A stretch of 53,490 nucleotides of DNA from Gammaproteobacteria bacterium (GTDB lineage Bacteria; Pseudomonadota; Gammaproteobacteria; SZUA-229), in the NCBI GenBank assembly GCA_011051475.1, contig DRLE01000036.1:1-53490 (forward strand). The letters run 5' to 3'. The translations under genes and the position numbers were made by a program. The notes under the pieces were generated by a model. The model saw only the letters and a program-made list of their open reading frames with translations, was not told the DNA's origin and made no database searches. Positions 2 to 45,039 of the stretch are shown here, one piece after another (positions within the stretch are counted from its first letter, which is position 1; every line of letters starts with the position of its first letter).

Positions 2-475
2 CGCGGCTACCGGCACTGCGTTCAGGCCTGCCCCTACAAGAAGATGATGTTCAATGCCGCCAAGGGCATGTCGGAGAAATGCATATTCTGTTACCCGCGT
101 ATTGAAAAAGGCAAGGCCAATGCCTGTGCCGTGCAGTGTCCGGGCCGGATCCGGCAGGTCGGTTTTCTGGATGACACGACCTCGGATGTCTACAAGCTGG
201 TGACAGAGCACCAGGTGGCAATCCCGCTGCACCCTGAATACGGTACCGGCCCCAATGTTTATTACATCCCTCCGTTTTCAGGGCCGTCAACCGTTGATGA
301 CCAGGGCCGCCCGATCAATATCGACAGGATACCGATGTCCTATCTTCGTTCGCTGTTTGGTGATGGCGTGGATTCGGTAATCGCGACACTACGGGCGGAA
401 CGTGACGCGGTTACCGGAGGCGGCAGCTCGGTGATTCTCGAAGTCCTTAATTCCAACAATCGTTACAGCCTGTAG
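2..475 (+). CDS. Fe-S (beta) subunit of a type II Mo-bisPGD (DMSO reductase family) enzyme, NarH/EbdB/DdhB/SerB-like; 5' end outside the window
   Basis: The reading frame is open from the window edge (RGYRHCVQACPYKK upstream of the first Met). EKCIFCYPRIEKGKANACAVQCPGRIRQVGFLDD is the C-terminal ferredoxin-type Cys cluster pattern of NarH-like beta subunits. An EB_dh-type gamma gene and a TorD-like chaperone gene follow directly. Confidence 0.85.
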   Translation, partial: RGYRHCVQACPYKKMMFNAAKGMSEKCIFCYPRIEKGKANACAVQCPGRIRQVGFLDDTTSDVYKLVTEHQVAIPLHPEYGTGPNVYYIPPFSGPSTVDDQGRPINIDRIPMSYLRSLFGDGVDSVIATLRAERDAVTGGGSSVILEVLNSNNRYSL

Positions 476-486
476 GTGGGGTGATT

Positions 487-1236
487 ATGAAAACGTTTAT
501 CAAGAAAACAGCGACTCTTTTCTCAGTCATTATCCTGCTGACCGGTCTTATGTGCGCCGAGGTTTCAGCTGCCCGCTGGGGTGGCGGTGGCGGCGGTGGT
601 GGCGGTAACTGGGGTGGTATCACAGCCGCGCGGGTTATCGGCAATGTGCTGGTGCCGCCGGATGATCCTCTGTGGGATGCTGCCACAGCACAGTCATTTA
701 ACCTGAGATTTATCAATTCCACCGGTGGCGGTGGCATGTGGGGTGGTGGCGACGGCACCTCCGGCGGCACCGGTGGCACCATGACCGTCAAGGCCATCCA
801 TAACGGCACGGAAATCGCCTTTCTCCTGACCTGGAATGATGCAACGCGCAATGACACGGTCAACGGTGTCGATGAATTCTCCGATCGCGTCGGCATTATG
901 TTCTCCGCCCAGCAGAAATGTCGCATGGGCTCACCCGCTAATCCGGTCAATATCTGGTTCTGGCATGCCGCCAGAGGTGAGGTGAATAATATCGTTGCCG
1001 GCGGCCTGGGCACGATAACCAAAACCGGCGATGACAATATCCAGGTTATCAGTCACTACGCCAATGGCCAGTGGCAGGTTGTTATGAGCCGCCCCCTGGT
1101 GCCAATTAATACCGATAACCAGGTGGACCTTACCAATGGCAACAGCCCGATGGCCTTTGCCCGCTGGGATGGTGCAAACCGGGAACGTAACGGCAAGAAA
1201 TGGATTACCGGCCAGACCAGTGTGAGCCTGCAATAA
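487..1236 (+). CDS. Heme-b gamma subunit (EB_dh / EbdC-DdhC-SerC-like domain) of the type II Mo enzyme, Sec signal peptide, with unusual poly-Gly inserts
   Basis: Signal peptide MKTFIKKTATLFSVIILLTGLMCAEVSA. The mature part shows the EB_dh-like pattern (TVKAIHNGTEIAFLLTWNDATRND, DRVGIMFSAQ, ANGQWQVVMSRPL, FARWDGANRERNGKKW). It lies 5 nt after the beta gene stop. ATG 487 is preferred (GGTGGGG just upstream); GTG 481 is the alternative. Confidence 0.75.
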   Translation: MKTFIKKTATLFSVIILLTGLMCAEVSAARWGGGGGGGGGNWGGITAARVIGNVLVPPDDPLWDAATAQSFNLRFINSTGGGGMWGGGDGTSGGTGGTMTVKAIHNGTEIAFLLTWNDATRNDTVNGVDEFSDRVGIMFSAQQKCRMGSPANPVNIWFWHAARGEVNNIVAGGLGTITKTGDDNIQVISHYANGQWQVVMSRPLVPINTDNQVDLTNGNSPMAFARWDGANRERNGKKWITGQTSVSLQ

Positions 1237-1309
1237 ACCGGCCTTACTTCAGGTGCAGTCACACTGGTTGGATTCAATCAGATAATCAAATTAACAACGG
1301 GTAATAATT

Positions 1310-2041
1310 ATGTCTCAAGCAGCAATGACAGGTCATCAGGGAAACTCAATGGTTCAGGAAAACCTGACACCTATGGATACCGTGAATATCGTACGTAGCA
1401 GGATGTATTACCTGCTTTCACTGGCGTTTTCCTACCCCGGTGAAAATCTGCTGTCCACTCAGGATGAATTATATGAACTGGTCGCGGTGCTTTATCCGAA
1501 TCTGGCCGTGAGCAGGAAAGACATGCTCGTTGAGCTGGATAAAATGGAAGCGGAATATATCAATGTCTTCGACGGTCATGAACAGAAAAAATACTGCAAG
1601 CCTTATGAAGGTCAGTGGCAGGAGGCCGATCGCGCCATGCGCCAGTGGGAGGTAAAGAAATTCTACCGGTTCTTTGGCCTGGGCCTGAACAGAGCGATAA
1701 ACGAAATGCCGGACCATATCATGTACGAGCTGGAGTTTATGCATTACCTCTGCTATCGCATGGTCGAATCCGCCAGTGGCGCCCTTGGTAAGGTGAAAGG
1801 CGCCGGGCCGAACCAGCCGCGGCATTATCTGCAGGCGCAAAAGGATTTTCTGGAAAGGCATCTACTGGCATGGGTGGATGATTTTTGCCGGTTATTGCAG
1901 GAAAAAACAACGCTTCCTTTTTATGTGCAGCTGGCCAGGGTGACAGCGCAGTTTATTGTCGATGATATGGAGTGGTTGCAGACACAGGGAGAGGAGGTCA
2001 GTAAACAGGCTTCCGGCCTGAATGGATACGCGAATGAATAA
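1310..2041 (+). CDS. TorD/NarJ/DmsD-family redox enzyme maturation chaperone (delta subunit, EbdD/DdhD/SerD-like)
   Basis: RSRMYYLLSLAFSYPGE...EAEYINVF...MPDHIMYELEFMHYL is the typical TorD-family core. Its position directly after the beta and gamma genes fits a delta subunit. Confidence 0.75.
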   Translation: MSQAAMTGHQGNSMVQENLTPMDTVNIVRSRMYYLLSLAFSYPGENLLSTQDELYELVAVLYPNLAVSRKDMLVELDKMEAEYINVFDGHEQKKYCKPYEGQWQEADRAMRQWEVKKFYRFFGLGLNRAINEMPDHIMYELEFMHYLCYRMVESASGALGKVKGAGPNQPRHYLQAQKDFLERHLLAWVDDFCRLLQEKTTLPFYVQLARVTAQFIVDDMEWLQTQGEEVSKQASGLNGYANE

Positions 2042-2114
2042 AGGCAGGCTCACAGTTTTTCAGGTTAACAGTCCATTGCGTTTTCTCCTCATCTTCGCAG
2101 ATACGGGCTGTTCA

Positions 2115-2274
2115 GGAAGCTCTGATTAATTCGTGACATGGCATCTTGCGGCGCAAAATCACGCATTTCCGCGTTGCAGACCTTCGAAATAGCTGGCTAT
2201 TCCGTACGGTTTGCGCCCTGAACTGAGCGATTTTTCACCACAATCTGCTTACGCCAGAATTAGTCAGAGCTTCC
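2115..2274. repeat. About 160-bp imperfect palindrome (MITE/REP-like hairpin element) between the chaperone gene and moaA
   Basis: Termini ggaagctctgattaattc (2115-2132) and gaattagtcagagcttcc (2257-2274) are reverse complements at 17/18 positions. The inner arms remain partly complementary around the centre aatagctggctatt (about 2189-2202). Confidence 0.55.
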
Positions 2275-2322
2275 TTAACCTTTTTTATTGACAAAGACAG
2301 TAGGGGTAAACAGAGCATACTC

Positions 2323-3321
2323 ATGGCAGAGCTTATTGATTCATACAATCGCCGCATAGATTATCTGCGGTTATCGGTAACCGATCACTGTAATTACCGT
2401 TGCTTTTACTGTCGTACAAAGGCCGGTGACCGGGTGGCAGGTAATCATGATTTTCTCAGCTTTGAGGAAATGACCCGCCTGGTCCGTCTGTTTACCGAGC
2501 TGGGTGTCAGCAGGCTGAGGCTTACCGGCGGCGAGCCCCTGGTGCGGCGCCATCTGGTGGATTTTGTCGGGCAACTGGAAAAGCTGCCAGGGCTTGCGGA
2601 TATATCACTTTCGACCAATGGCCATTTGCTGGAACGTTTTGCTGCGCCATTAAAAGCGGCAGGTGTCAGTCGGGTAAATATCTCGCTTGATTCGATTGAT
2701 GCTGATAATTTCCGCCGCATAACCCGCAATGGTGAGCTGCAACAGGTCAGCCGTGGTATAGACGCCGCGCTGGCCGCCGGTATGGCGCCGGTAAAAATCA
2801 ATATGGTCGTAATGAGAGGGGTTAATGATCACGAGATTGAGTCCATGCTGGATTATGTGCTTGAGCGAGGCCTGGAGCTGCGGTTTATAGAAACCATGCC
2901 GGTCGGTGAAGCCGGGCGCAGGGTAATGGATTTGCATTATCCGGCCGCACAGATACTGCAGCGTGTTCGTGAGCGCTTCGCTACGCAGCTGGTTCCGGTC
3001 AAGGGTGGCAGGGGCGCAGGCCCGGCGCGCTATTATCAACTGGCAAACGGTCCGGCCAGGGTAGGGGTGATTTCCGCCGTGTCCCGGCATTTTTGCGAAG
3101 GCTGTAACCGGGTTCGCCTCACCGCAGAGGGTGAACTTGTGCTGTGCCTGGGGCATGAAAATCGGGTTTCCCTGCGCGAACCTCTGAGAGCCGGTTGCGG
3201 TGATGACGAAATCATGCAGCTTATCCGGACGGCTATTGCCAGCAAGCCAGCGCGCCATGATTTTCTGCGCCGGGATAAGAGCCATATACCGCTCAGCAGT
3301 ATGACCAGCCTTGGTGGATAG
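2323..3321 (+). CDS. moaA: GTP 3',8-cyclase MoaA (molybdenum cofactor biosynthesis, radical SAM)
   Basis: N-terminal YLRLSVTDHCNYRCFYC (CxxxCxxC radical-SAM cluster), LRLTGGEPLVR, and C-terminal second cluster CEGCNRVRLTAEGELVLC. Confidence 0.95.
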   Translation: MAELIDSYNRRIDYLRLSVTDHCNYRCFYCRTKAGDRVAGNHDFLSFEEMTRLVRLFTELGVSRLRLTGGEPLVRRHLVDFVGQLEKLPGLADISLSTNGHLLERFAAPLKAAGVSRVNISLDSIDADNFRRITRNGELQQVSRGIDAALAAGMAPVKINMVVMRGVNDHEIESMLDYVLERGLELRFIETMPVGEAGRRVMDLHYPAAQILQRVRERFATQLVPVKGGRGAGPARYYQLANGPARVGVISAVSRHFCEGCNRVRLTAEGELVLCLGHENRVSLREPLRAGCGDDEIMQLIRTAIASKPARHDFLRRDKSHIPLSSMTSLGG

Positions 3322-4002: not shown

Positions 4003-4950
4003 ATGCAAAGACGTGAATTTCTGAAATCAAGTCTGGCTGGTTCTGCGGCATTCGCCCTTTCCGGCCTGACCGTGCTGAATTCGAAGCGTGCACATGCGGC
4101 TACCAGCAATATTGAATTAAGCGCCGAAGGGACATACAAGACCATGGTCGATGGTACGTCCGTCTATGTCTGGCAGTTCAATGATGCCAATGGCAGCGGT
4201 CCCGGTGCGCTGACCTCCGGCATTGTTGTCAATGAAGGTGACGTGGTCAATGTTACGGTTACCAACAACCTGGACAGGGCAATCAACTTTGTCATTCCCG
4301 GTGTAATGGCGAATACGCCTTCCGTATCACCCGGTTCGTCACAGACCTACAGCTTTACCGCGCCTGCAGCCGGCAGCTATTTCTACACCGACGGTGTCAA
4401 TGGTGAAATCGGCAAGGCGATGGGGCTTTCCGGCCCTCTGGTCGTGATGCCGGCCGATGGCTCCGATCGCCTGTACACCGGCGGGCCTGCCTTTAACCGG
4501 CAGTACACGCTGGTGCTGAACGAACTGGATGACCGCCTGAATGCGGCAGTGGCTGCCGGCGGTACCTACAATATGGACGATTACGAGCCTAACTACTACT
4601 TTGCCAACGGTCTGAGCTATCCCGATACCGCCGGTGATGGCGACACGCTGGTCTCTATGAATGTGGGCGAGAACGTGGCCATCCGCTTCATTAATACCGG
4701 CTGTATTACCTATCCTCAACACTTCCACGGTTATCACGTTAATGTCATCAGTCGCAATCGCGTACTGGAAACCCGTGTCATCGAGAAGGATACCACCCAG
4801 GTGGAGCGTGACATGTGTACCGATGTCATCCTGCCGGTCGCGCAGGCGGGCGCCTACCCGCTGCATACCCACTATGTTCCCGGTGTAACCGCCAATGGTG
4901 TTTATGTGTATCCCTATGGCGGCGCACTGATCGTCATGGTCGCAGCGTAA
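4003..4950 (+). CDS. Two-domain multicopper-oxidase-like protein, Tat signal. Cu ligands are retained only in the C-terminal cupredoxin half (HFHGYH, HTH) and there is no T1 Cys
   Basis: Twin-arginine signal MQRREFLKSSLAGSAAFALSGLTVLNSKRAHA. GDVVNVTVTN and PLVVMP are cupredoxin-like strands. HFHGYH at nt 4720-4737 and HTH at nt 4864-4872. RBS GAGGAAAAA before the ATG. Colinear paralogue of the next ORF. Confidence 0.8.
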   Translation: MQRREFLKSSLAGSAAFALSGLTVLNSKRAHAATSNIELSAEGTYKTMVDGTSVYVWQFNDANGSGPGALTSGIVVNEGDVVNVTVTNNLDRAINFVIPGVMANTPSVSPGSSQTYSFTAPAAGSYFYTDGVNGEIGKAMGLSGPLVVMPADGSDRLYTGGPAFNRQYTLVLNELDDRLNAAVAAGGTYNMDDYEPNYYFANGLSYPDTAGDGDTLVSMNVGENVAIRFINTGCITYPQHFHGYHVNVISRNRVLETRVIEKDTTQVERDMCTDVILPVAQAGAYPLHTHYVPGVTANGVYVYPYGGALIVMVAA

Positions 4951-4983
4951 TAACCCGTTATCGAGAATTTGAGGAGAATGAAA

Positions 4984-6009
4984 ATGCTTAACAAGTTTCA
5001 AAAGATCTATACAATGAGTATGCGTCGCGGTGGTGGCGGTGGCGGAAACGGCGGCGGTGGCGGCTCTACCACCCCGCCTGCCGGTGGTCGCACCTTCAGT
5101 TACCAGGCCGCACCTACCAGCGTTGGCGTCAGCATGATGGGCAATCTGACCATGGCCGATGGTGCATCACTTCGCACCTGGTATTTTGGCAGCGGCTTTA
5201 ATGGCGATCGCGCACTGGCGGGCCCTGTTTTCGAGGCCAATGAAGGTTCCAATGTGCAAATCACGCTGAGCTCGATGATGCCGCACAGTATTCATTTCCA
5301 TGGTCTGGATGTGGATCAGGCGAATGACGGCGTGCCAAGTACTTCCGGTTATGTCGGAAGAAGCATGGGCGGCGGCGGTTTCGGTCGTGTCGGCAATGCC
5401 ACCAGCCTCGGTAATTCATATACCTACACCTTTACTGCGCCACATGCTGGTACCTATATGTATCACTGCCATGTGGATACCTCCCTGCATTTTGAAATGG
5501 GTATGTACGGCACGGTGATTATTCGTCCTGCCAATGGTGACAGCAATGTGGCATGGGCAGGCGGTCCTGCTTTCGATAAGGAGTATATCTGGCAGATGGG
5601 CGCCTTTGACAGCAGCTGGCATGGCAGCAGGGTGAGCGGTGCACAAACCGCGCGTTACCGTCCCGACTATTTCATGATCAATGGCAGTGACGGCGCCAAT
5701 GCGAGTAACGATAGCACGGTGGCGATTTCTGCCGGCGCCGGCCAGAAGGTACTGATCCGCGTCAATGGCACCAGCTATATGCCGGGTATTGTACGTCTGG
5801 GTGGCTTGCAGTTTGAGGTGATTGCTTCTGACGGGCGGCCGCTGGCAGTTCCCTATGTTACAACCGAACAGCTGTGCTGTGCCGGTGAACGCTATGACCT
5901 GCTGGTAACGATGCCTTCATCCGGCCAGTACACGGCGAGTATCGAATATCGTGATATTCGCAATGGCAAGGCACTGGGTACGGTGACCACGACACTGACT
6001 GTCGTTTAA
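4984..6009 (+). CDS. Two-domain multicopper-oxidase-like protein, no signal peptide. The T1 site and half of the trinuclear-cluster ligands sit only in the N-terminal half; Gly-rich N-terminus
   Basis: HSIHFHG (nt 5284-5301) and HCHVDTSLHFEMGM (nt 5464-5505). No hydrophobic N-terminal segment (MLNKFQKIYTMSMRRGGGGGGNGGGGGSTT). GAGGAG lies 7 nt before ATG 4984; the TTG 4969 and ATG 4978 alternatives have poor spacing. Confidence 0.8.
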   Translation: MLNKFQKIYTMSMRRGGGGGGNGGGGGSTTPPAGGRTFSYQAAPTSVGVSMMGNLTMADGASLRTWYFGSGFNGDRALAGPVFEANEGSNVQITLSSMMPHSIHFHGLDVDQANDGVPSTSGYVGRSMGGGGFGRVGNATSLGNSYTYTFTAPHAGTYMYHCHVDTSLHFEMGMYGTVIIRPANGDSNVAWAGGPAFDKEYIWQMGAFDSSWHGSRVSGAQTARYRPDYFMINGSDGANASNDSTVAISAGAGQKVLIRVNGTSYMPGIVRLGGLQFEVIASDGRPLAVPYVTTEQLCCAGERYDLLVTMPSSGQYTASIEYRDIRNGKALGTVTTTLTVV

Positions 6010-6024
6010 TAGTATGGAGAATGG

Positions 6025-6062
6025 AAAAGCCTTCGTCATTATAAAATGACGAAGGCTTTTTA
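6025..6062. terminator. Bidirectional intrinsic terminator between the convergent MCO operon and the response-regulator gene
   Basis: aaaagccttcgtcatt-ataa-aatgacgaaggctttt: a perfect 16-bp stem flanked by A and T runs. Confidence 0.8.
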
Positions 6063-6112: not shown

Positions 6113-6721
6113 CTATTGATCTTTCAGGCTCAGCACCATCTGCACCAGTTCGGGTAGTGATTTTGTGTTCATTTTTTCCATGACCCGGGCACGGTGCACT
6201 TCAACCGTTTTTACACTGATGCCACATTGTTCGGCTATTTTCCGGTTGGGGTTGCCTGAAACCATCAGTTCCATGATTTCCTTTTCGCGGGGGGTCAGGC
6301 TCTCAATACAGGTGATGACCGATGCAGAGGCCGAATCTTTTTCCCGGTTCCTTGCATCTGTCTCCACGGCTTCCTGGATATTGTCCAGCAGCTCCTGGTC
6401 ACGGAACGGTTTTTCCAGAAAGACCTGGGCGCCCTGCTGCATGGCTTTTACCGCCATCGGTACATCACCATGGCCGCTGATAATAATGACGGGTAAGTTG
6501 ATATTATCTGCACGCATTTTCTGCTGCAGTTGCAGACCGCTCATGCCGGGCAGGCGTACATCCAGTATCAGGCAGCCGGGCGTGTCGGGATCGTAGGCAT
6601 CAAGAAAATCCTGTGCCGATGCATAGGTTCTGACGGGGTAACCAACGGTTTCTATCAGCCAGCTTAACGAGTCTCTTATTGCGGGATCGTCATCAACAAT
6701 AAAAATAGTCGGTTCTGCCAT
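6113..6721 (-). CDS. FixJ/NarL-family response regulator (REC + LuxR-type HTH)
   Basis: MAEPTIFIVDDDPAIRDSL...LILDVRLPGMSG...EKPF receiver domain. C-terminal LTPREKEIMELMVSGNPNRKIAEQCGISVKTVEVHRARVMEKM is the HTH. ATG 6721 has GAGGAA upstream; the longer ORF to 6877 overlaps the kinase gene. Confidence 0.9.
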   Translation of the reverse strand: MAEPTIFIVDDDPAIRDSLSWLIETVGYPVRTYASAQDFLDAYDPDTPGCLILDVRLPGMSGLQLQQKMRADNINLPVIIISGHGDVPMAVKAMQQGAQVFLEKPFRDQELLDNIQEAVETDARNREKDSASASVITCIESLTPREKEIMELMVSGNPNRKIAEQCGISVKTVEVHRARVMEKMNTKSLPELVQMVLSLKDQ

Positions 6722-6761
6722 AGTGGGTTTCCTCGCTGAAGTAACACCTGTGAGGCGTACT

Positions 6762-9065
6762 TCAGCCTGTTTCCTGTCGGTCCGGCGGCGGCCGGTCGTT
6801 ATCGCTACCTGCCAATGGTAGTATAAAGCAGAACTGGGAGCCACCTTCTTCTCTTTCTCTGTACCATAATACGCCATTGTGCTCCTCTATAATCGAGCGG
6901 CAGATAGACAGGCCCATGCCGAGGCCATCGGCCTTGGTCGTAAAATAGGTATCGAATATCCTGTCGACGTTTTCCCGGGAGACGCCTTCACCGGCATCGT
7001 ATACCGAAACGCGGACGTAACCCTTGTCATCGATTTCACTTTTAATCAGTAAGCTTCGTTGCTCCTCGGCAATGTCCTGCATGGCATCAAAGGCATTGCG
7101 TATCAGGTTAATCATGACCTGTTCGATTTGCAGTACATCAACGTTTACCACCAGGCTGGAAGGTTCGAGTTCAAGCTCCGGCCGCGGGCTGATATTCTGC
7201 TGGCTGATCAGAACCAGGTCAACGGATTTGCGTATAATGTTATTGAGGTCGGCCTGTTCAAGATGGAATGTTTCACGGTGCGCGAAGCTGCGCATTTTTC
7301 GGATGATTTCGCTGGCGCGTTCCACCTGTTCTATTGATGAGTTAACGGCCTTGATAATGTCCTTGCAGGTGTCGGCCTCGGGGTCGCAACGACGCAGGCT
7401 GGCCTGCAGGTAGAGCGACATGGCCGCCAGCGGCTGGTTCAGTTCATGGGCGATACCCGCCGCCATCTCACCCATAATGCTGAGACGGCCGGCATGCGCC
7501 ATTTCGGCGATGTGTTCCTGCCTTTCTTTCTCCCTTGCCAGACGCTCGCTGATGTCGACCACCAGAGCCGTGTAAAGAGTGCTGCCATCGATAAGCGTTT
7601 TGCTGATTTTTATGGATACCGGTACCCGCCTGGCGGATTTCGTCAGTATATCGATTTCGAAGGCCCTTGCCGATTCGCCATTGCTCTTGCTGTCATCGCT
7701 GACAAGCTGGCCGGTAAGCAGCAGGCGGTAGTTTTCAAGATTTTCCTCCGGGATCAGTATGCGCACACTTTTACCCAGAACTTCTTCTGCCCGGTAACCG
7801 AACAGCTGCTCGGCGGCGGCATTGAAGGTTTCAATATTTCCCTGACTGTCTATGGTAATAATGGCCTCGGCGGCATTGTCCAGGATATTGACAAGGCGCT
7901 GCTGCCTGGACTGTACCTGTCTTCGCATTTTATCGAATGCCTCGGTCAGCTGGCGTATCTCCTGGGCACTGCTACGGGTTTTGATGCTGGCTTTCCTGCC
8001 GCCGGCCTCGTCCTCAAGCGCCTGAGCAACCTGGCTGATGGGCATGAGAATGGTACGGGAGAAAATAATATAGCCTAGCAGAATAAGCAGAGAGCCGACC
8101 GCGAACAGGAACCACAGCGAATCGGAAAGCTGTCGTGCCAGAGAGGTAAGTTGCATCATGGAGGCGGTACGAATATCCTCGATTTTTATGTGCAGCTGGT
8201 TGAAAGAACTGTCCAGGTGTTCAAAAGCGGGGCGGATCTTTTCACCCAGAAGCACAATGTCCTGGCGCCAGTCGGGTGCGTTCAGCATGCTGATGGCATA
8301 GCGGTAGTACTGCACGGCATCTTCAATCTGCCTGTTAAGGCTGGCTATGTCGGCTTCAATTTCCAGTGAAAGCCTGTCCCTGTCTTTCTCCTGTTTCAGT
8401 TCTTCCAGAAGCTGATCAAGCCTGCTGAAATACATTTTGATGTTGTTAACTCGGTCTCTGAAGGCTGCGGTCCAGTCACCGGTAAAGATACCAAAGCGCA
8501 CGGAAACAAGCAGGCGGAATTCCGCCATCATGCGTACCCAGGTGTAGCGAATATCGGACAGCCGGGTTCTTGTTTCGTAGGGCAGGTCTTCCCTGCTCGC
8601 AGACAGCAGAATATTGTTGATCAGGGACAGGATTTCAATATTGTCCGTGTTAAGCGCGAGCATAATGGTCGTAAAGGGAAAGGTTTTTTCTGCATCCAGG
8701 CGTACCTTCACGGCCTGGTCCAGCTCTGTGCGGCATTGTTCAATGTTTTTACCCAGTTGATCCAGTTGTTCCAGAAAACCGTGATCGATATTGCCGTGGT
8801 TTATTCTGTTGAACTGTTCGAATGTCCGGATCAGATTGTCGAGCGAATCGAGATAGGCCTGGTGGTGCTTTTTATCGGGTTCGATCATGAATTCCATGGT
8901 GGTGAACTTGACGTTCTGGTACCGGGTGTTGAATTCATGGAAAACGTTTTCTATATCACGCAGAACCTCCATGTCATGATGGTGCTCATGGACCCCCCGC
9001 TGCACGCTGTACCAGCCGAAAACAGTAATTATGGCCAGCAGGATAAACAGCATCAGTGCGACCAT
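6762..9065 (-). CDS. Membrane sensor histidine kinase: 2 TM helices, a roughly 300-aa helical periplasmic domain, HAMP, PAS, HisKA and HATPase (FixL/DctB-like transmitter)
   Basis: TM1 MVALMLFILLAIITVFGWY and TM2 LWFLFAVGSLLILLGYIIF. PAS LVNILDNAAEAIITIDSQGNIETFN. H-box MAAGIAHELNQPL. N/G boxes NLIRNAFDAM, DAGEGV, GLGMGLSICRSI. Start is set at ATG 9065 just before TM1. The ORF extension to 9233 runs into terminator hairpins. Confidence 0.85.
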   Translation of the reverse strand: MVALMLFILLAIITVFGWYSVQRGVHEHHHDMEVLRDIENVFHEFNTRYQNVKFTTMEFMIEPDKKHHQAYLDSLDNLIRTFEQFNRINHGNIDHGFLEQLDQLGKNIEQCRTELDQAVKVRLDAEKTFPFTTIMLALNTDNIEILSLINNILLSASREDLPYETRTRLSDIRYTWVRMMAEFRLLVSVRFGIFTGDWTAAFRDRVNNIKMYFSRLDQLLEELKQEKDRDRLSLEIEADIASLNRQIEDAVQYYRYAISMLNAPDWRQDIVLLGEKIRPAFEHLDSSFNQLHIKIEDIRTASMMQLTSLARQLSDSLWFLFAVGSLLILLGYIIFSRTILMPISQVAQALEDEAGGRKASIKTRSSAQEIRQLTEAFDKMRRQVQSRQQRLVNILDNAAEAIITIDSQGNIETFNAAAEQLFGYRAEEVLGKSVRILIPEENLENYRLLLTGQLVSDDSKSNGESARAFEIDILTKSARRVPVSIKISKTLIDGSTLYTALVVDISERLAREKERQEHIAEMAHAGRLSIMGEMAAGIAHELNQPLAAMSLYLQASLRRCDPEADTCKDIIKAVNSSIEQVERASEIIRKMRSFAHRETFHLEQADLNNIIRKSVDLVLISQQNISPRPELELEPSSLVVNVDVLQIEQVMINLIRNAFDAMQDIAEEQRSLLIKSEIDDKGYVRVSVYDAGEGVSRENVDRIFDTYFTTKADGLGMGLSICRSIIEEHNGVLWYREREEGGSQFCFILPLAGSDNDRPPPDRQETG

Positions 9066-9219
9066 AATATAACGGGCGCGCAGCGTGGCTGGAATGATCA
9101 GTCTGGAAAGATTGCTCAAATTACAGATCGTAATGTCATTTAAAAAAACAGGCTCTGGCCTTGCAGATAGCCTGATTATATTACGGAAACGCCGGCGAAT
9201 GTTGTTTTGTGCGCCGGCA

Positions 9220-9253
9220 AAAAGCCGGTGCAATGAAGGCAGTGCCGGCTTTT
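9220..9253 (-). terminator. Probable intrinsic terminator downstream of yggT
   Basis: aaaagccgg-N16-ccggctttt, followed by a T run on the minus strand. Further hairpins lie at 9191-9218 and 9271-9303. Confidence 0.5.
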
Positions 9254-10934: not shown

Positions 10935-11969
10935 ATGGATATTGCTCAGTTACTTGCATTCAGTGTTAAAAACGGCGCTTCAGATTTGCACCTGTCCGCC
11001 GGCCTGCCGCCGATGATTCGCGTCGACGGCGATGTGCGCCGCATCAACGTGGATCCCATGGACCACGAGTCGGTTCACGGCATGGTCTATGACATTATGA
11101 ACGACAAGCAGCGCAAGACCTTTGAGGAATACCTCGAAACCGACTTTTCATTTGAAATTCCCGGCCTGGCGCGTTTTCGTGTCAATGCCTTTAACCATAA
11201 CCGTGGCGCCGGCGCTGTGTTCCGTACCATTCCCTCCAAGATTCTCACCCTGGAGGAACTGCAGGCGCCGAAAATTTTTGAGCAGATTGCCGACACGCCC
11301 CGCGGCATCGTGCTGGTGACCGGTCCGACCGGCTCCGGTAAGTCGACCACACTGGCGGGTATGGTGAACTATGTCAACGAAAACCATTACGGCCATATTC
11401 TTACCATTGAAGACCCGATCGAATTTGTTCATGAAAGCAAGAAATCGCTGGTCAACCAGCGTGAGGTACACCGCGATACTCTGGGTTTCAGTGAGGCGCT
11501 GCGCTCGGCGCTGCGTGAAGACCCCGATGTCATCCTCGTGGGCGAGATGCGTGACCTTGAAACCATCCGCCTGGCGCTGTCCGCGGCGGAAACCGGTCAT
11601 CTGGTTTTCGGCACCCTGCATACCAGCTCGGCGGCAAAAACCATTGACCGTATCGTCGACGTGTTTCCTGCGGCGGAAAAGGAAATGGTGCGCGCCATGC
11701 TGTCAGAATCGCTGCGCGCGGTTATTTCCCAGACCCTGCTGAAGAAGATCGGCGGCGGCCGTGTTGCCGCGCATGAAATCATGATCGGTACTTCGGCAAT
11801 CAAGAACCTGATCCGTGAGAACAAGATTGCACAGATGTTCTCGGCGATTCAGACCGGTCAGTCCATCGGCATGCAGACCCTGGACCAGAACCTGCAGGAG
11901 CTGCTGGCACGCGGCCTGATCAGCAAGGACGAAGCGCGCAAGAAAGCGGCTAACAAGGACCTGTTCTAG
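10935..11969 (+). CDS. pilT: Type IV pilus retraction ATPase PilT
   Basis: ASDLHLSAGLPPMIRVDG, Walker A GPTGSGKSTT, Walker B ILVGEMRD, His box GHLVFGTLHT and the AIKNLIRE motif. Confidence 0.95.
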   Translation: MDIAQLLAFSVKNGASDLHLSAGLPPMIRVDGDVRRINVDPMDHESVHGMVYDIMNDKQRKTFEEYLETDFSFEIPGLARFRVNAFNHNRGAGAVFRTIPSKILTLEELQAPKIFEQIADTPRGIVLVTGPTGSGKSTTLAGMVNYVNENHYGHILTIEDPIEFVHESKKSLVNQREVHRDTLGFSEALRSALREDPDVILVGEMRDLETIRLALSAAETGHLVFGTLHTSSAAKTIDRIVDVFPAAEKEMVRAMLSESLRAVISQTLLKKIGGGRVAAHEIMIGTSAIKNLIRENKIAQMFSAIQTGQSIGMQTLDQNLQELLARGLISKDEARKKAANKDLF

Positions 11970-12101
11970 AAAATCCGGCCCAGGAGGCCCTGCTTCCGGC
12001 TTGCCCGCAAAGCGCCGGAATAGAGCAGGGGAACGGCCAGAAACTCGTATTGATATCAATAGTTCATTCCAGTAATCACGAAGTTGTAAGAGGATCAAAC
12101 G

Positions 12102-13265
12102 GTGGATCGCGATAAAGCCATAAAATACATGCATGACCTGCTGCGCCTGATGGTGCAGAAGAACGGTTCCGACCTGTTTATTACCGCCGGTGCGGTACCG
12201 TCGATGAAAGCCGATGGTGAAATGAAGCCGTTGTCCAACCAGGCATTAACGCCGCAGCATACCCAGGTGCTGGTCAGCTCGATCATGAATGATCGCCAGC
12301 GCGCCGAATTCGAGGAAAGCCAGGAGTGCAACTTTGCCATCAGTCTGCCGGGGGTGTCGCGTTTTCGTGTCAATGCCTTTACCCAGCGCGGCTCCGTTGG
12401 TGTGGTACTGCGTGTAATCCGCTCCGAGATACCCGAGTTCGAAGATCTTAACCTGCCGCCGATATTAAAAGATATTTCCATGACCAAGCGTGGTCTGGTG
12501 ATTTTTGTCGGCGCCACCGGTTCCGGTAAGTCGACGTCGCTGGCGGCCATGGTGGGCTATCGCAACCAGAACAGCCGCGGCCATATTATTACCATCGAGG
12601 ACCCGATCGAGTTTATCCATAACCACCGCAACTGTATTGTCACCCAGCGCGAGGTCGGCGTGGACACGGAAAACTACGAGATCGCGCTGAAGAACACCCT
12701 GCGTCAGGCGCCCGATGTCATTCTTATCGGTGAGATCCGTGACCGTGAAACCATGGAGCACGCGATTGCCTTTGCCGAAACCGGACATCTCTGCCTGTCC
12801 ACACTGCACGCCAACAGTACCAACCAGGCACTGGACCGTATTATCAACTTTTTCCCGGAAGACCGCCGCCAGCAGTTGCTGATGGACCTGTCGCTGAATC
12901 TGAAGAGCCTGATTTCACAGCGCCTGATTGCCACGGCCAACCGCACAGGCCGTGTTGCCGCGGTTGAAATCATGATCAATTCGCCGCTGATGGCCGACCT
13001 GATCTTCAAGGGCAATGTGCATGACATCAAGGAACTGATTGCCAAGTCCAATGAGCTGGGCATGCAGACCTTTGACCAGGCCCTGTTCGACCTGTTTGAA
13101 AGCGGCCAGATCAGGTACGAGGATGCCCTGCGCAATGCCGACTCTGTCAATGACCTGCGCCTGCGTATCAAGCTGGAAGGCAAGCATGCGAAAAGCAGCG
13201 ACCTGATGGAAGGCCTGGACAGTATTACGGTCGAAGACAATGATGACAAATCACGCATCCGTTAG
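12102..13265 (+). CDS. pilU: PilT-family ATPase PilU
   Basis: LLRLMVQKNGSDLFITAGAVPSMKADG, Walker A GATGSGKSTS, GHLCLSTLHA. About 380 aa with a PilU-type C-terminal tail. GTG start. Confidence 0.85.
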   Translation: MDRDKAIKYMHDLLRLMVQKNGSDLFITAGAVPSMKADGEMKPLSNQALTPQHTQVLVSSIMNDRQRAEFEESQECNFAISLPGVSRFRVNAFTQRGSVGVVLRVIRSEIPEFEDLNLPPILKDISMTKRGLVIFVGATGSGKSTSLAAMVGYRNQNSRGHIITIEDPIEFIHNHRNCIVTQREVGVDTENYEIALKNTLRQAPDVILIGEIRDRETMEHAIAFAETGHLCLSTLHANSTNQALDRIINFFPEDRRQQLLMDLSLNLKSLISQRLIATANRTGRVAAVEIMINSPLMADLIFKGNVHDIKELIAKSNELGMQTFDQALFDLFESGQIRYEDALRNADSVNDLRLRIKLEGKHAKSSDLMEGLDSITVEDNDDKSRIR

Positions 13266-13311
13266 AAACCGCTGCTGGCGTTATGATGATTAAAACGGAA
13301 GAGACAGATAG

Positions 13312-14445
13312 ATGAATCTGCAACCTTACCTCAAGTTGATGTCGGAGCAGAATGCTTCGGACATGTATTTCACCACCGGCGCGCCGGTGGCGATGCGTAT
13401 CGATGGTGTCATGCGTCCGGTCGGCAAGAGCATGCTGAACCCGGGCATGACCAAGAAACTGGCCTATGACCTGCTGTCACCTGCCCAGATACAGGATTTT
13501 GAAAACAACCTGGAGCTCAACCTGGGCGTGTCCTATACCGACCTGGGCCGTTATCGCATCAATATCTATATGCAGCGCGGTGAGGTTTCCATGGTCATTC
13601 GTTTTATTCGCGCCGATATCCCGAGTCTGGATGAGCTGGGCCTGCCGGATATCTACAAGACCATGATCATGCGAAAGAAGGGACTGGTGCTGGTGGTCGG
13701 CGCCACCGGCATGGGCAAGTCAACCTCGCTGGCCTCCATGCTCGATTACCGTAATATGAAGGAGAGCGGGCATATTCTTACCATTGAAGACCCCATCGAG
13801 TTCATGTTCCGTCACAAGAAATGCATAGTCGGGCAGCGCGAGGTCGGACTGGATACGCTGTCCTTCGATAATGCCCTGCGAGAAGCCATGCGCGAGGCGC
13901 CGGACGTTATTATGATCGGCGAGGCGCGTGACCGTGACACCATGGAATCCGCCCTGCGTTACGCCGACACCGGCCATCTCTGTCTGACCACGCTGCACGC
14001 CACCAATGCCAACCAGACGCTTGACCGTCTGCTGAATTTTTTCCCCAGTGACGCACACAACCAGGTACTGATGGACCTGTCGCTGAATCTTAACTGCATC
14101 CTGGCGCAGCGTCTGGTCAAGGCGAAGGACGGACACCGTGAGGTTGCCGTGGAAGTGCTGGTGAATACGCCCTATATCAGCAAGCTGATCCGCGAGGGGG
14201 ATTTCCACGAGATCAAGGAGATTATGCAGAAGGGCAGCGAGTCAGGCATGAAAACATTCGACCAGGCCCTGTTTGAGCTGTTCAAGGCGAGGAAGATAGA
14301 CCTGGATACCGCGCTGGCCAATGCCGATTCGCGCAGCGACCTGGAGTGGAAAATCAACTTCGGGGGCGGGGTAAAGGATCTGCATGGCAAGGATGACCCC
14401 TCGGAAACGCTGGAGTTTCCCAGCAGTCCGGCTGACCAGAAGTAA
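13312..14445 (+). CDS. Second PilU-like PilT-family ATPase (tandem paralogue)
   Basis: ASDMYFTTGAPVAMRIDG, Walker A GATGMGKSTS, GHLCLTTLHA, YISKLIREGD. Colinear with the preceding pilU. Confidence 0.8.
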   Translation: MNLQPYLKLMSEQNASDMYFTTGAPVAMRIDGVMRPVGKSMLNPGMTKKLAYDLLSPAQIQDFENNLELNLGVSYTDLGRYRINIYMQRGEVSMVIRFIRADIPSLDELGLPDIYKTMIMRKKGLVLVVGATGMGKSTSLASMLDYRNMKESGHILTIEDPIEFMFRHKKCIVGQREVGLDTLSFDNALREAMREAPDVIMIGEARDRDTMESALRYADTGHLCLTTLHATNANQTLDRLLNFFPSDAHNQVLMDLSLNLNCILAQRLVKAKDGHREVAVEVLVNTPYISKLIREGDFHEIKEIMQKGSESGMKTFDQALFELFKARKIDLDTALANADSRSDLEWKINFGGGVKDLHGKDDPSETLEFPSSPADQK

Positions 14446-23280: not shown

Positions 23281-23392
23281 AACAGCAGATTACTGAAACA
23301 GAAAAATACATAAATATAACAACAGAAGATGAAAGATTGCTGGTTACGCCGACCAGGGTGTGGCGAATCAAGTTAATTGGAGAGAAGGCCTT

Positions 23393-25453: not shown

Positions 25454-25493
25454 CAATTATAAACAGTCGAAGACCTGGTATAGGTAAGCAATA

Positions 25494-35130: not shown

Positions 35131-35162
35131 GCTCATCTCCTAATCGTTAAAAATTAAAGAAA

Positions 35163-35266
35163 TGAGCGCCGTTGTTCTATCATTCCGCCCTGCAGGCAGG
35201 GCGAAGCGTTTTCTGAGCCTGACAGCTGCCGGATGATCCGTCGGCTGTTGCAGCGCTCCTCAGAAT
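35163..35266 (-). promoter_or_regulatory. SAH riboswitch (S-adenosylhomocysteine-sensing element) in the ahcY leader
   Basis: The minus-strand RNA reads CUGAGGAGCGCUGCAAC-(hairpin)-GUCAGGCUCAGAA-(hairpin GCCCUGCCUGCAGGGC)-AACGGCGCUCAUU. This contains the three conserved blocks of the SAH element as I remember it: GAGGAGCGCUGC.AC, GUCAGGCUC and AACGGCGCUCA. CUGAG/CUCAG can form P1 and GAGCGC/GCGCUC the pseudoknot. It lies about 30 nt upstream of the ahcY start. Confidence 0.85.
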
Positions 35267-35276
35267 AAGTTGTTAA

Positions 35277-45016: not shown

Positions 45017-45039
45017 GTTTCTCTCCACGCGCACGCGAT

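What the first reader, a model, noticed from the sequence alone, without database searches (positions are those of the whole stretch)
4003..6009. Reciprocally degenerate pair of two-domain multicopper oxidases: a probable obligate heteromeric 'split' MCO
The two adjacent ORFs are colinear paralogues (TYSFTAPAAGSYFYTDGV vs TYTFTAPHAGTYMYHCHV; GGPAFNRQY vs GGPAFDKEY), each with two cupredoxin-like halves. ORF2 keeps ligands only in its N-terminal half: HSIHFHG (nt 5284-5301) and HCHVDTSLHFEMGM (nt 5464-5505). That gives one T1 site (His, Cys, His, Met) plus four trinuclear-cluster His. The aligned ORF1 residues are RAINFVI and TDGVNGEIGKAMGL, so every ligand is replaced. Conversely, ORF1 keeps ligands only in its C-terminal half: HFHGYH (nt 4720-4737) and HTH (nt 4864-4872, with Thr where a T1 Cys would sit). 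The aligned ORF2 residues are RLGGLQ and SIE. A trinuclear Cu cluster needs eight His from four HxH pairs. In two-domain MCOs it is built at the interface of domain 1 of one chain and domain 2 of its neighbour. Neither protein can build it alone, but ORF2-domain 1 plus ORF1-domain 2 supply exactly four HxH pairs and one T1 site. This reads as a type-C two-domain MCO that duplicated and subfunctionalised into an obligate hetero-oligomer with fewer active sites per ring. I know of no characterised heteromeric two-domain MCO, but I cannot verify novelty here.
Basis: partly seen in the sequence, partly recalled or inferred. Interest (0 to 1): 0.85.

Follow-up and report, generated by a model that had tools for sequence, protein, structure and literature searches.

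The report
Two-gene split multicopper oxidase
Two neighbouring genes each encode half of the copper-binding residues of a multicopper oxidase, so the enzyme's oxygen-reducing copper cluster can probably only form where the two different proteins meet; the pair is widespread but apparently undescribed.

Summary
ORF1 (4003-4950) and ORF2 (best start 4984, to 6009) are paralogous two-domain multicopper oxidases (27% identity, E 2e-21). Both are closest to the type-C enzymes 3g5w and 2zwn.

ORF2 keeps the blue-copper site and four cluster histidines, all in domain 1. ORF1 keeps only four cluster histidines, in domain 2. These residues are invariant in 120+120 database homologues and in 88+101 sequences from loci. 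The lost positions never hold the ligand set.

The genes are adjacent in 29 of 32 close genome loci (two cut, one lacking ORF2). They are adjacent in all 68 informative metagenome loci, across many phyla. No other neighbour is conserved.

ORF1 has a twin-arginine signal and ORF2 has no signal, which suggests co-export as a complex. Single-chain natural fusions with the same ligand pattern exist in both orders.

The most likely reading is an obligate heteromeric oxidase with one composite copper cluster. Physical assembly and stoichiometry were not shown; my AlphaFold test was compatible but not discriminating. About half of the neighbourhoods I read with annotation hold metal-resistance genes, which hints at copper homeostasis. 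The molybdoenzyme next door is not a conserved partner. I found no published description.

The parts
4003..4950 (+). ORF1, 315 aa: two-domain multicopper-oxidase-like protein. Domain 1 has no copper ligands; domain 2 has four cluster histidines.
   Evidence: ORF list. Pfam Cu-oxidase_3 and Cu-oxidase_2. Best solved relatives are 3g5w and 2zwn. There are 366 close homologues.
4003..4098 (+). Twin-arginine (Tat) signal peptide of ORF1: MQRREFLK..., ending AHA before the predicted cleavage site.
   Evidence: RRxFLK motif read from the sequence. The Pfam TAT_signal hit is weak: E 0.0021, 18.4 bits against a cut-off of 22.7. R3, R4 and F6 are invariant in 20 diverse homologues.
4099..4467 (+). ORF1 domain 1 (approximate limits), the 'dead' cupredoxin. 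RAINFVI and YTDGVNGE stand where ORF2 has HSIHFHG and YHCHVDTS.
   Evidence: BLASTP alignment. Family column counts. Conservation 0.75 against 0.81 for domain 2.
4468..4947 (+). ORF1 domain 2 (approximate limits), the 'live' half of the cluster site.
   Evidence: Alignment to 3g5w and 2zwn.
4720..4737 (+). HFHGYH. H240 and H242 are predicted cluster ligands. H245 is also invariant; its role is unknown.
   Evidence: Aligned to the HTH of 3g5w. Invariant in 121 of 121 sequences and 88 of 88.
4864..4872 (+). HTH. H288 and H290 are predicted cluster ligands.
   Evidence: Aligned to the HDH of 3g5w and 2zwn. Invariant.
4972..4977 (+). GAGGAG ribosome-binding site for ORF2, 7 nt before ATG 4984. ORF1 ends with a double stop (TAATAA, 4948-4953).
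   Evidence: Sequence.
4984..6009 (+). ORF2, 341 aa: two-domain multicopper oxidase. Domain 1 has the type-1 site and four cluster histidines; domain 2 has no ligands.
   Evidence: Pfam. Solved relatives 3g5w and 2zwn, E 1e-17. P0121 is identical with this start.
4984..5088 (+). ORF2 N-terminal tail: a conserved 13-aa peptide (MLNKFQKIYTMSM) followed by a poly-Gly linker. There is no hydrophobic signal-peptide core.
   Evidence: N-termini of 40 homologues. Comparison with signal-bearing distant relatives.
5089..5547 (+). ORF2 domain 1 (approximate limits), 'live'.
   Evidence: Alignment to 3g5w and 2zwn.
5284..5304 (+). HSIHFHG. H101 is the predicted type-1 ligand. H104 and H106 are predicted cluster ligands.
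   Evidence: Aligned to HTIHWHG of 3g5w. Invariant in 120 of 120 sequences and 101 of 101.
5464..5505 (+). HCHVDTSLHFEMGM. H161 and H163 are predicted cluster ligands. C162, H169 and M174 are predicted type-1 ligands.
   Evidence: Aligned to HCHVNVNEH...GM of 3g5w. C162 and M174 are invariant and H169 is present in 119 of 120. All are present in 101 of 101.
5548..6006 (+). ORF2 domain 2 (approximate limits), 'dead'. RLGGLQ and SIE stand where ORF1 has HFHGYH and HTH.
   Evidence: Conservation 0.70 against 0.76 for domain 1.
6024..6061 (+). Terminator-like hairpin with a 17-bp stem, closing the two-gene unit. It lies between ORF2 and the convergent response-regulator gene.
   Evidence: No terminator-like site lies between ORF1 and ORF2.

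Best explanation
ORF1 and ORF2 are the two subunits of one periplasmic multicopper oxidase.

Shown from sequence: each chain has two cupredoxin domains of the type-C two-domain kind. ORF2 domain 1 carries a complete blue type-1 copper site (H101, C162, H169, M174) and four histidines of the trinuclear cluster (H104, H106, H161, H163). ORF1 domain 2 carries the other four (H240, H242, H288, H290).

Inferred: ORF1 domain 2 packs against ORF2 domain 1 in the way neighbouring subunits of a two-domain oxidase trimer do. This builds one composite trinuclear cluster wired to the ORF2 type-1 site through the His-Cys-His triad. Substrate electrons enter at the type-1 copper and O2 is reduced to water at the interface cluster. 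The two ligand-free domains are kept as scaffold.

Inferred: the complex forms in the cytoplasm and is exported by the Tat system on the signal peptide of ORF1, with ORF2 as a passenger.

Stoichiometry is open. Natural single-chain fusions argue for a 1:1, four-domain unit. Loci with a third gene (ORF2-ORF1-ORF2') leave room for a 1:2 ring.

The physiological substrate is unknown. Recurrent metal-resistance neighbours, and Met/Gly-rich or Cys/Met-rich linkers in relatives, make oxidation of Cu(I) or another metal ion the best guess (about 0.4).
For: - Ligand mapping onto the solved type-C enzymes 3g5w and 2zwn.
- Invariance of every kept ligand, and absence of the lost ones, in 120+120 homologues and in 88+101 sequences from loci.
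- Adjacency on the same strand: 29 of 32 close genome loci, spanning Gammaproteobacteria, Nitrosomonas, Acidobacteriota, Holophagae, Polyangiaceae, Hydrogenothermaceae and Sulfurimonas. Also 68 of 68 uncut metagenome loci. Sulfurovum lithotrophicum also has the pair.
- No other conserved neighbour.
- A 33-nt gap with a ribosome-binding site and one terminator after ORF2.
- A Tat motif on ORF1 only, and no signal on ORF2 in this clade.
- Dead domains are nearly as conserved as live ones.
- Natural fusions. P0374 is ORF1-like followed by ORF2-like in one chain with the same reciprocal pattern, seen on two independent contigs with no other oxidase gene nearby. P0297, P0304, P0307, P0311 and P0308 are ORF2-like followed by ORF1-like. 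P0308 has exactly four HxH motifs, in the first and last oxidase domains.
- A remote ORF1-like protein (P0367) is again followed by an ORF2-like gene.
- The AlphaFold2 model of ORF1 linked to ORF2 superposes on four consecutive ceruloplasmin domains, TM 0.57-0.59. A single two-domain unit gives 0.36.
- Metal context: RND efflux, P-type ATPase, CDF, MerR, YHS/HMBD, CopB and further oxidases next to the pair in 4 of the 8 annotated neighbourhoods I read. One more has only a CDF gene, and three have none.
Against: - No direct evidence of a physical complex.
- The AlphaFold model is of low confidence exactly at the ORF1 ligand loops (pLDDT 25-60; pTM 0.55). I imposed the chain order, so it would probably give the same packing for any four tandem cupredoxins.
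- Inter-protein covariation on 88 pairs showed no enrichment between ORF1 domain 2 and ORF2 domain 1: 7 of the top 60 pairs against 12.9 expected.
- One locus (L027) has ORF1 without ORF2.
- More distant ORF2-like proteins carry their own Tat-lipoprotein signals, so co-export is not universal.
- A closed ring of 1:1 composition does not fit the known threefold geometry of two-domain oxidases.
- In this window the neighbours are a molybdoenzyme operon and a two-component system, not metal-resistance genes.
Confidence: 0.78

Rival explanations
1. The two proteins work separately. ORF2 forms homotrimers with a type-1 copper and a reduced, non-canonical copper site built from its four domain-1 histidines (a nitrite-reductase-like or type-2-like centre). 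ORF1 is a separate copper-binding or accessory protein. Adjacency would reflect only a shared pathway.
For: Both proteins score weakly against the copper nitrite reductase model: TIGR02376 gives 42-44 bits. Many solved nitrite reductases also appear among the hits. The covariation test did not single out the predicted interface. Distant ORF2-like proteins have their own export signals.
Against: - The nitrite reductase scores are far below the curated cut-off of 296 bits.
- The His-Cys-His triad and both HxH pairs of ORF2 are those of an oxidase.
- The four ORF1 histidines sit exactly at the complementary positions and are invariant.
- ORF2 has no export signal in this clade.
- Single-chain fusions keep exactly one set of four HxH motifs.
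Confidence: 0.08
2. ORF1 is a non-catalytic escort. It would be a degenerate paralogue that only carries ORF2 through the Tat system, or loads copper into it, and then dissociates. The active enzyme would be ORF2 alone or ORF2 with some other partner.
For: ORF1 has the only Tat signal. ORF1 lacks a type-1 site and half of the cluster ligands. Ligand-free multicopper-oxidase-like proteins do exist, for example SufI/FtsP, which appears as a weak hit.
Against: - An escort would not need four histidines fixed at the cluster positions in every one of more than 200 sequences.
- ORF2 alone cannot supply eight cluster histidines.
- In natural fusions the ORF1-like unit is a permanent part of the chain.
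- In distant systems both partners have their own signals yet stay paired.
Confidence: 0.07
3. The pair belongs functionally to the neighbouring type II DMSO-reductase-family molybdoenzyme. It would act, for example, as an electron acceptor or as oxidative protection for that enzyme, as proposed for the oxidase in nitrite-oxidoreductase clusters of Nitrospina.
For: In the window the pair lies on the same strand directly after the beta, heme-b gamma and chaperone genes and moaA. The heme-b subunit carries a poly-Gly stretch like that of ORF2. PMC3578206 describes a multicopper oxidase inside an NXR gene cluster.
Against: - The association is seen only in this window and in contigs that carry the identical ORF2 protein.
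- None of the 34 genome loci has the molybdoenzyme genes next to the pair, including the 78-84% identical Thiogranum locus L002. One locus has a beta-subunit-like ORF about 5 kb away on the other strand.
- A 680-bp gap separates moaA from ORF1.
Confidence: 0.05

Closest known systems
Type-C two-domain multicopper oxidases: Nitrosomonas europaea blue copper oxidase (PDB 3g5w) and metagenomic mgLAC (PDB 2zwn)
   Same: Best sequence matches of both ORFs and best single-unit structural matches of the models (TM 0.68-0.72 on the target). Shared features are two cupredoxin domains, a type-1 site in the N-terminal domain, and cluster histidines as HxH pairs in both domains. The cluster lies between protomers (PMC13151041).
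   Different: The known enzymes are described as trimers of one chain that carries all twelve ligands. Here no chain has more than eight, and the two chains are complementary. Identity is only about 23-25%.
Six-domain multicopper oxidases (ceruloplasmin, PDB 4enz, 5n0k, 1kcw; MnxG of the Mnx complex, PDB 9bxa)
   Same: By my own knowledge, these have one trinuclear cluster at a single domain interface, while the other pseudo-equivalent interfaces have lost their ligands. The four-domain model superposes on four consecutive ceruloplasmin domains, TM 0.57-0.59.
   Different: They are single chains of six domains, and ceruloplasmin has three type-1 sites in the even-numbered domains. Here there are two chains of two domains and one type-1 site, in an N-terminal domain.
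Nmar_1354 (MCO4) of Nitrosopumilus maritimus, PDB 9cck
   Same: A two-domain oxidase reported as an alpha-alpha-alpha' 'heterotrimer' with an extra pendant cupredoxin (PMC11761707). The natural fusions P0297 to P0311 also end in a plastocyanin-like domain.
   Different: Its three chains are products of one gene and differ only by loss of the pendant domain. Every interface holds a full cluster.
Tat 'hitchhiker' enzyme pairs, for example NxrA/NxrB and other DMSO-reductase-family enzymes
   Same: The signal peptide is on one subunit only and the partner has none (PMC3578206). The same arrangement is seen for ORF1 and ORF2.
   Different: Those are molybdenum / iron-sulfur enzymes. I found no multicopper oxidase described as exported this way.
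CopA/PcoA/CueO copper-resistance oxidases (three-domain)
   Same: Tat-exported periplasmic oxidases in copper-resistance gene clusters. The pair sits beside such genes in Sulfurovum lithotrophicum. Relatives have Met-rich segments.
   Different: They are single chains of three domains. TIGR01480 scores 42-66 bits against a cut-off of 479.

Membership tests
Multicopper oxidase superfamily (cupredoxin-domain oxidases) | Cupredoxin domains recognised by the Pfam Cu-oxidase models | tested here: met
   ORF1: Cu-oxidase_3 35.7 bits and Cu-oxidase_2 34.7 bits. ORF2: Cu-oxidase_2 48.2, Cu-oxidase_3 48.2 and Cu-oxidase 42.3 bits. All are above the curated cut-offs of about 21 bits.
Type-C two-domain multicopper oxidase | Chain of about 300 residues with two cupredoxin domains | tested here: met
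   Colinear alignment of both ORFs with 3g5w (318 aa) and 2zwn over both domains. Models match 3g5w_A with TM 0.68-0.72.
Type-C two-domain multicopper oxidase | Type-1 copper ligands (His, Cys, His, Met) in the N-terminal domain | tested here: inconclusive
   Met by ORF2 (H101, C162, H169, M174). Not met by ORF1, which has R92, D130, I136 and L142 or nearby residues instead.
Type-C two-domain multicopper oxidase | All eight trinuclear-cluster histidines (two HxH pairs in each domain) in the same chain | tested here: not met
   ORF1 has only the two domain-2 pairs and ORF2 only the two domain-1 pairs. This holds in every homologue examined. The two chains together have all eight.
Type-C two-domain multicopper oxidase | Homotrimer with three clusters at the protomer interfaces | not testable with these tools
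   No multimer prediction or coordinates were available. The ligand distribution makes a functional homotrimer impossible for either chain.
Copper-containing nitrite reductase (NirK) | Score above the curated equivalog cut-off of TIGR02376 | tested here: not met
   42.3 and 44.1 bits against a cut-off of 296.3.
Copper-resistance oxidase CopA/PcoA and CueO | Score above the curated cut-offs of TIGR01480 / NF008205; three-domain chain of about 500-600 aa | tested here: not met
   42-66 bits against 479, and 18-35 bits against 525. The chains are 315 and 341 aa.
Six-domain multicopper oxidase (ceruloplasmin / MnxG type) | Single chain of six cupredoxin domains with the cluster between the first and last domain | tested here: not met
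   There are two chains of two domains. Only the logic of one live interface among degenerate ones is shared. Natural four-domain fusions exist.
Tat hitchhiker complex | Twin-arginine signal on one subunit, none on the partner | tested here: met
   ORF1 has QRREFLK followed by a hydrophobic region and AHA, with R3, R4 and F6 invariant. The Pfam TAT_signal hit is below its cut-off. ORF2 N-termini of this clade have no hydrophobic stretch.
Tat hitchhiker complex | Partner export depends on the signal-bearing subunit | not testable with these tools
   This needs fractionation of strains with and without ORF1 or with its RR motif mutated.

The most novel reading that the evidence does not exclude
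The functional unit is a 1:1 heterodimer: a four-cupredoxin-domain oxidase with one type-1 copper and one trinuclear cluster. This is a quaternary architecture not seen in any solved multicopper oxidase, which have 3 domains, 3x2 domains or 6 domains. It would be a living intermediate on the proposed evolutionary route from homotrimeric two-domain oxidases to single-chain multi-domain oxidases. It would exist in nature both as two genes and as single-chain fusions in either order, and this clade would export it by Tat hitchhiking.
Probability: 0.35. Interest if true: 0.8.

Novelty: new variant of a known kind. Interest (0 to 1): 0.66.

Why it matters
By my own knowledge, multicopper oxidases are a textbook case of enzyme evolution by domain duplication. 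The model of Nakamura and Go derives three- and six-domain enzymes from trimers of two-domain proteins, through duplication and loss of redundant copper sites. A two-gene enzyme whose subunits have lost complementary halves of the cluster would be a natural example of the intermediate step that the model requires.

It would also show that an interface metal cluster can be partitioned between paralogues, which locks them into obligate partnership.

In practice the pair is abundant in marine-sediment and hydrothermal-vent bacteria of many phyla and is now annotated only as 'multicopper oxidase domain-containing protein'. Either gene expressed alone would be predicted inactive. That matters for enzyme mining and for reading copper-resistance islands.

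A Tat-hitchhiking copper oxidase would also be a new type of Tat substrate.

Tried and rejected
1. AlphaFold2 of ORF1 fused to ORF2 with alignment A2. MAFFT stacked both paralogous families on the ORF1 half, so the ORF2 half had no alignment. The model was poor (pTM 0.51) and showed no ceruloplasmin-like packing (TM 0.32-0.34, rmsd about 18 A).

3. A block alignment that MAFFT reproduces only with the pseudo-fusion P0192 as anchor and few rows gave the second model. It packs like four consecutive ceruloplasmin domains. Confidence is low at the ORF1 ligand loops and I imposed the chain order, so I count it as compatible only. Model coordinates could not be read.

4. Inter-protein MI-APC covariation on 88 pairs (Neff 51). 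Scores exceed shuffled pairing, as any co-inherited genes would, but show no enrichment for ORF1 domain 2 with ORF2 domain 1. Inconclusive.

5. P0192, an apparent ORF1-ORF2 fusion, lies on a contig with many fragmented genes next to an insertion sequence. I rejected it as evidence.

6. A functional link to the adjacent type II DMSO-reductase-family genes and moaA is not conserved in any related locus.

7. The protein upstream of the fusion P0308 was tested as a possible third oxidase unit. It is a plastocyanin/azurin-type protein, not an oxidase unit.

8. Literature searches for a heteromeric or split two-domain oxidase found none. The one 'heterotrimer' hit is a proteolysed homotrimer. The library lacks most subscription journals, so absence is not proof.
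Full report
**The observation.** The window holds two same-strand ORFs, ORF1 at 4003-4950 (315 aa) and ORF2 ending at 6009. ORF1 ends in a double stop. GAGGAG at 4972-4977 is followed 7 nt later by ATG 4984, so ORF2 most likely starts there (341 aa) and not at the TTG at 4969. The database protein P0121 is identical to ORF2 with that start. A terminator-like hairpin with a 17-bp stem lies at 6024-6061, and no terminator-like site lies between the two genes. The proteins are colinear paralogues: 27% identity over 290 residues, E 2e-21. Both pass the Pfam multicopper-oxidase models.

**Do the histidines sit at cluster positions?** The best solved relatives of both proteins are the two-domain oxidases 3g5w (Nitrosomonas europaea) and 2zwn (mgLAC). 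E-values are 1e-17 for ORF2 and 3.5e-9 for ORF1.

- ORF2 'PHSIHFHG' aligns with 'PHTIHWHG', and 'YHCHVDTSLHFEM-GMYG' aligns with 'YHCHVNVNEHVTMRGMWG'.
- ORF1 'HFHG' aligns with 'HTHG', and 'LHTHY' aligns with 'IHDHV'.

In the type-C class the type-1 copper is in the N-terminal domain, and the cluster is coordinated by residues of two protomers (PMC13151041). ORF2 domain 1 therefore has a full type-1 site (H101, C162, H169, M174) and four cluster histidines (H104, H106, H161, H163). ORF1 domain 2 has the other four (H240, H242, H288, H290). The Thr of HTH is not a lost cysteine: the solved enzymes have Asp there.

The mature ORF1 has only five histidines in all. ORF2 has no HxH motif in domain 2. 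Neither chain can form a cluster with copies of itself. Together they have exactly one type-1 site and eight cluster histidines.

**Is the pattern conserved?** ORF1 has 366 and ORF2 has 890 database relatives at E <= 1e-5. The best 120 of each are 54-100% identical.

- In these, ORF1 H240, H242, H245, H288 and H290 are invariant (121/121). The positions opposite the ORF2 ligands hold R/L, N/R and D, not the ligand residues; His occurs only at position 129, in 15 of 121.
- ORF2 H101, H104, H106, H161, C162, H163 and M174 are invariant, and H169 is present in 119 of 120.
- In sequences translated from genome and metagenome loci, 88/88 ORF1-type and 101/101 ORF2-type proteins keep every live ligand. 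None has the ligand set at the dead positions.
- The dead domains are almost as conserved as the live ones: mean majority frequency 0.75 against 0.81 in ORF1, and 0.70 against 0.76 in ORF2. They are under selection, presumably as scaffold.

**Do the genes travel together?** An ORF1 profile scan of one genome per species returned 34 loci. These come from Gammaproteobacteria (Thiogranum, Thiohalobacter, Lysobacterales, Chromatiales), Nitrosomonas, Acidobacteriota, Holophagae, Thermoanaerobaculia, Polyangiaceae, Hydrogenothermaceae and Sulfurimonas.

- Of the 32 close loci, 29 have ORF2 directly adjacent on the same strand. Two are cut by a contig end, and one (L027) truly lacks ORF2.
- The reverse scan, an ORF2 profile against metagenome contigs, gave 80 loci. 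68 have both genes. The 12 with ORF2 alone are all cut on a side where ORF1 could lie.
- Gene order is ORF1-ORF2 in 59 loci, ORF2-ORF1 in 6 and ORF2-ORF1-ORF2' in 2. In the triple loci both ORF2 copies keep the domain-1 ligands.
- All-against-all clustering of neighbouring ORFs found no other conserved gene.

The pair is thus a self-contained, horizontally mobile two-gene module.

**Export.** ORF1 begins MQRREFLK, then a hydrophobic stretch, then AHA, which reads as a twin-arginine signal. R3, R4 and F6 are invariant in 20 diverse homologues. The Pfam TAT_signal hit itself is weak and below its cut-off.

ORF2 and its close relatives begin with a conserved 13-residue peptide (MFNKFQxIYxMSM or MFNILKDxLMMR). 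A poly-Gly(/Met) linker follows, with no hydrophobic core. If ORF2 is periplasmic, it must ride on ORF1, as partner subunits of Tat-exported molybdoenzymes are proposed to do (PMC3578206). That requires a complex formed before export.

More distant ORF2-like proteins (45-57% identity) instead have RRxFL plus a lipobox and long Pro/Thr linkers with Cys/Met motifs. Co-export is therefore a feature of this clade and not of the whole family.

**Natural fusions.** Searching with the concatenated proteins found five proteins of 724-754 aa (P0297, P0304, P0307, P0311, P0308). Their first two domains are closer to ORF2 (145-157 bits, against 95-115 for the other unit). Their next two domains are closer to ORF1 (149-172 bits, against 108-133). 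A plastocyanin-like domain follows.

- Four of them still have the domain-2 histidines in the ORF2-like unit.
- P0308 has lost them and has exactly four HxH motifs, in the first and last oxidase domains.

An exhaustive profile search with the ORF1 family found 110 clusters at E <= 1e-30. Among them is P0374 (686 aa), a chain in the other order: ORF1-like, a linker of about 20 residues, ORF2-like, then a T9SS tail. It has the same reciprocal pattern: dead, HFHGFH/HDH, HTIHLHG/YHCHV...H...M, dead. It occurs on two independent contigs with no other oxidase gene nearby.

A remote protein with Ig-like repeats and a C-terminal ORF1-like unit (P0367) is followed by a 339-aa ORF2-like gene with HTIHLHG and YHCHQHTVKHLEMGM.

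These fusions are strong indirect evidence that the two units act as one enzyme, and they favour a 1:1 unit. The apparent fusion P0192 is an artefact of a frameshift-ridden contig.

**Structure prediction.** Only single chains could be folded and coordinates were not readable.

- A first model of ORF1 linked to ORF2 had no alignment for the ORF2 half and was uninformative.
- A 19-row block alignment gave a model with mean pLDDT 69 and pTM 0.55. The loops holding the ORF1 ligands were poorly defined.
- Foldseek placed that model on ceruloplasmin and factors V/VIII with TM 0.54-0.59 (rmsd 7.6-9 A).

So the four domains pack like four consecutive domains of a six-domain oxidase, which puts ORF1 domain 2 against ORF2 domain 1. 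I imposed the chain order, and AlphaFold may default to this arrangement for tandem cupredoxins. The result is compatible with the hypothesis but not discriminating.

Covariation between the two families (88 pairs, Neff 51) was above shuffled pairing but did not favour the predicted interface. With so few sequences and a nearly invariant interface, this is inconclusive.

**Function.** The window comes from a hydrothermal-vent metagenome: contigs carrying the identical ORF2 protein and the same gene order are listed. The chromosomal context is ordinary (pilT-like ATPase genes, proC, a Chp/PilJ chemosensory cluster, a PilQ-type secretin, a class A penicillin-binding protein, dnaG).

Upstream lie the iron-sulfur, heme-b and chaperone genes of a type II DMSO-reductase-family enzyme, then moaA. 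Downstream, on the other strand, lie a FixJ/NarL-type response regulator and a PAS histidine kinase. This neighbourhood is not conserved even in the 78-84% identical Thiogranum locus.

Elsewhere the pair sits beside metal-homeostasis genes:

- an OEP/CzcB/RND efflux set and a P-type ATPase in Thiohalobacter sp. IOR34;
- a YHS/HMBD P-type ATPase, two further multicopper oxidases, CopB and a response regulator in Sulfurovum lithotrophicum;
- RND, CDF, MerR and DUF305 genes in metagenome contigs.

Together with the Met/Gly-rich and Cys/Met-rich linkers, this makes a periplasmic metal oxidase for copper homeostasis the best functional guess. It is only a guess.

**Comparison with what is known.** The pair is derived from type-C two-domain oxidases but fails their defining feature of all eight cluster histidines in one chain. 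It shares the logic of six-domain oxidases (one live interface among degenerate ones) but not their single chain. It scores far below the cut-offs for NirK, CopA and CueO.

Full-text searches found no heteromeric or split two-domain oxidase. The 'heterotrimer' of Nmar_1354 is one gene product partly clipped. Public annotation is generic. The library lacks most subscription journals, so novelty is probable, not certain.

**Verdict.** The interpretation as a reciprocally degenerate, obligately heteromeric oxidase is supported by ligand mapping, invariance, near-universal adjacency, asymmetric export signals and natural fusions. It is not yet shown physically. Stoichiometry (1:1 four-domain unit against a 1:2 ring) and substrate are open. 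I rate it a new variant of a known kind, of clear interest for metalloenzyme evolution.

Noticed in passing
window 4984-5088; compare window 565-615 in the heme-b subunit gene (481-1236): ORF2 starts with a conserved 13-aa peptide (MFNKFQxIYxMSM in relatives) followed by a poly-Gly linker. The unrelated heme-b gamma subunit upstream has RWGGGGGGGGGNWGG right after its signal peptide, and some ORF2 relatives have RWGGG repeats too. The purpose of these Gly (Trp/Met) stretches is unknown.
   Followed up: partly
window 44-3321: The window opens inside a type II DMSO-reductase-family operon: the C-terminal part of the iron-sulfur subunit, an EB_dh heme-b subunit, a NarJ/TorD-type chaperone, then moaA. 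The catalytic subunit lies outside the window and the substrate is unknown. The link to the oxidase pair is not conserved in other loci.
   Followed up: partly
window 6113-9233 (- strand): A FixJ/NarL-type response regulator and an 823-aa HAMP-PAS histidine kinase converge on the oxidase pair. They may regulate either the molybdoenzyme or the oxidase genes. The ORF lists overlap at 6762-6877, so one start is probably later; gene calls in L035 give a 202-aa regulator.
   Followed up: no
L008 8657-11555; L010 200-3002: Some Holophagae and gammaproteobacterial loci have three genes: ORF2-like, ORF1-like, then a second ORF2-like. Both ORF2 copies keep all domain-1 ligands. In L008 the second copy breaks off after domain 1. 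This could mean a 1:2 heterotrimer or a decaying duplicate.
   Followed up: partly
P0297, P0304, P0307, P0311, P0308 (L045 8001-10265): Natural proteins of 724-754 aa have an ORF2-like unit, an ORF1-like unit and a C-terminal plastocyanin-like domain. Two (P0307, P0311) are labelled 'manganese oxidase' by JGI. This is a four-plus-one cupredoxin-domain architecture that I did not find described.
   Followed up: partly
P0266, P0273, P0275, P0279, P0288-P0302 (N-termini): Distant ORF2-like proteins are predicted Tat-lipoproteins. They have long Pro/Thr/Ala linkers that contain CGCMP, CPMCDMPMPPP or MMPPPSTG motifs, which are possible Cu(I)-binding tethers.
   Followed up: no
L027 9731-10957: This is the only uncut locus with ORF1 and no ORF2. 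ORF1 there runs on into a 'DGFESGDTTEWS' motif that starts ORF2 in the related locus L029, and then stops. It looks like a deletion of ORF2.
   Followed up: partly
L033 6004-16250: A Nitrospirae contig has distant relatives of ORF2 and ORF1 side by side (26-31% identity). They are followed by a stop-free reading frame of about 2400 codons that also contains an ORF1-like segment.
   Followed up: no
window 35157-35267 (- strand): An SAH riboswitch (Rfam RF01057, 55.6 bits) lies directly upstream of the S-adenosylhomocysteine hydrolase gene (33706-35136). This is the ordinary, expected arrangement.
   Followed up: yes
window 23360-31568: A PilJ-type methyl-accepting protein is followed by a 2024-aa ChpA-like kinase with several Hpt domains, HATPase, CheW and a receiver domain. 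pilT-like ATPase genes (10935-14445) and a PilQ-type secretin gene (42761-45034) lie elsewhere in the window. This is a standard twitching-motility gene set.
   Followed up: partly
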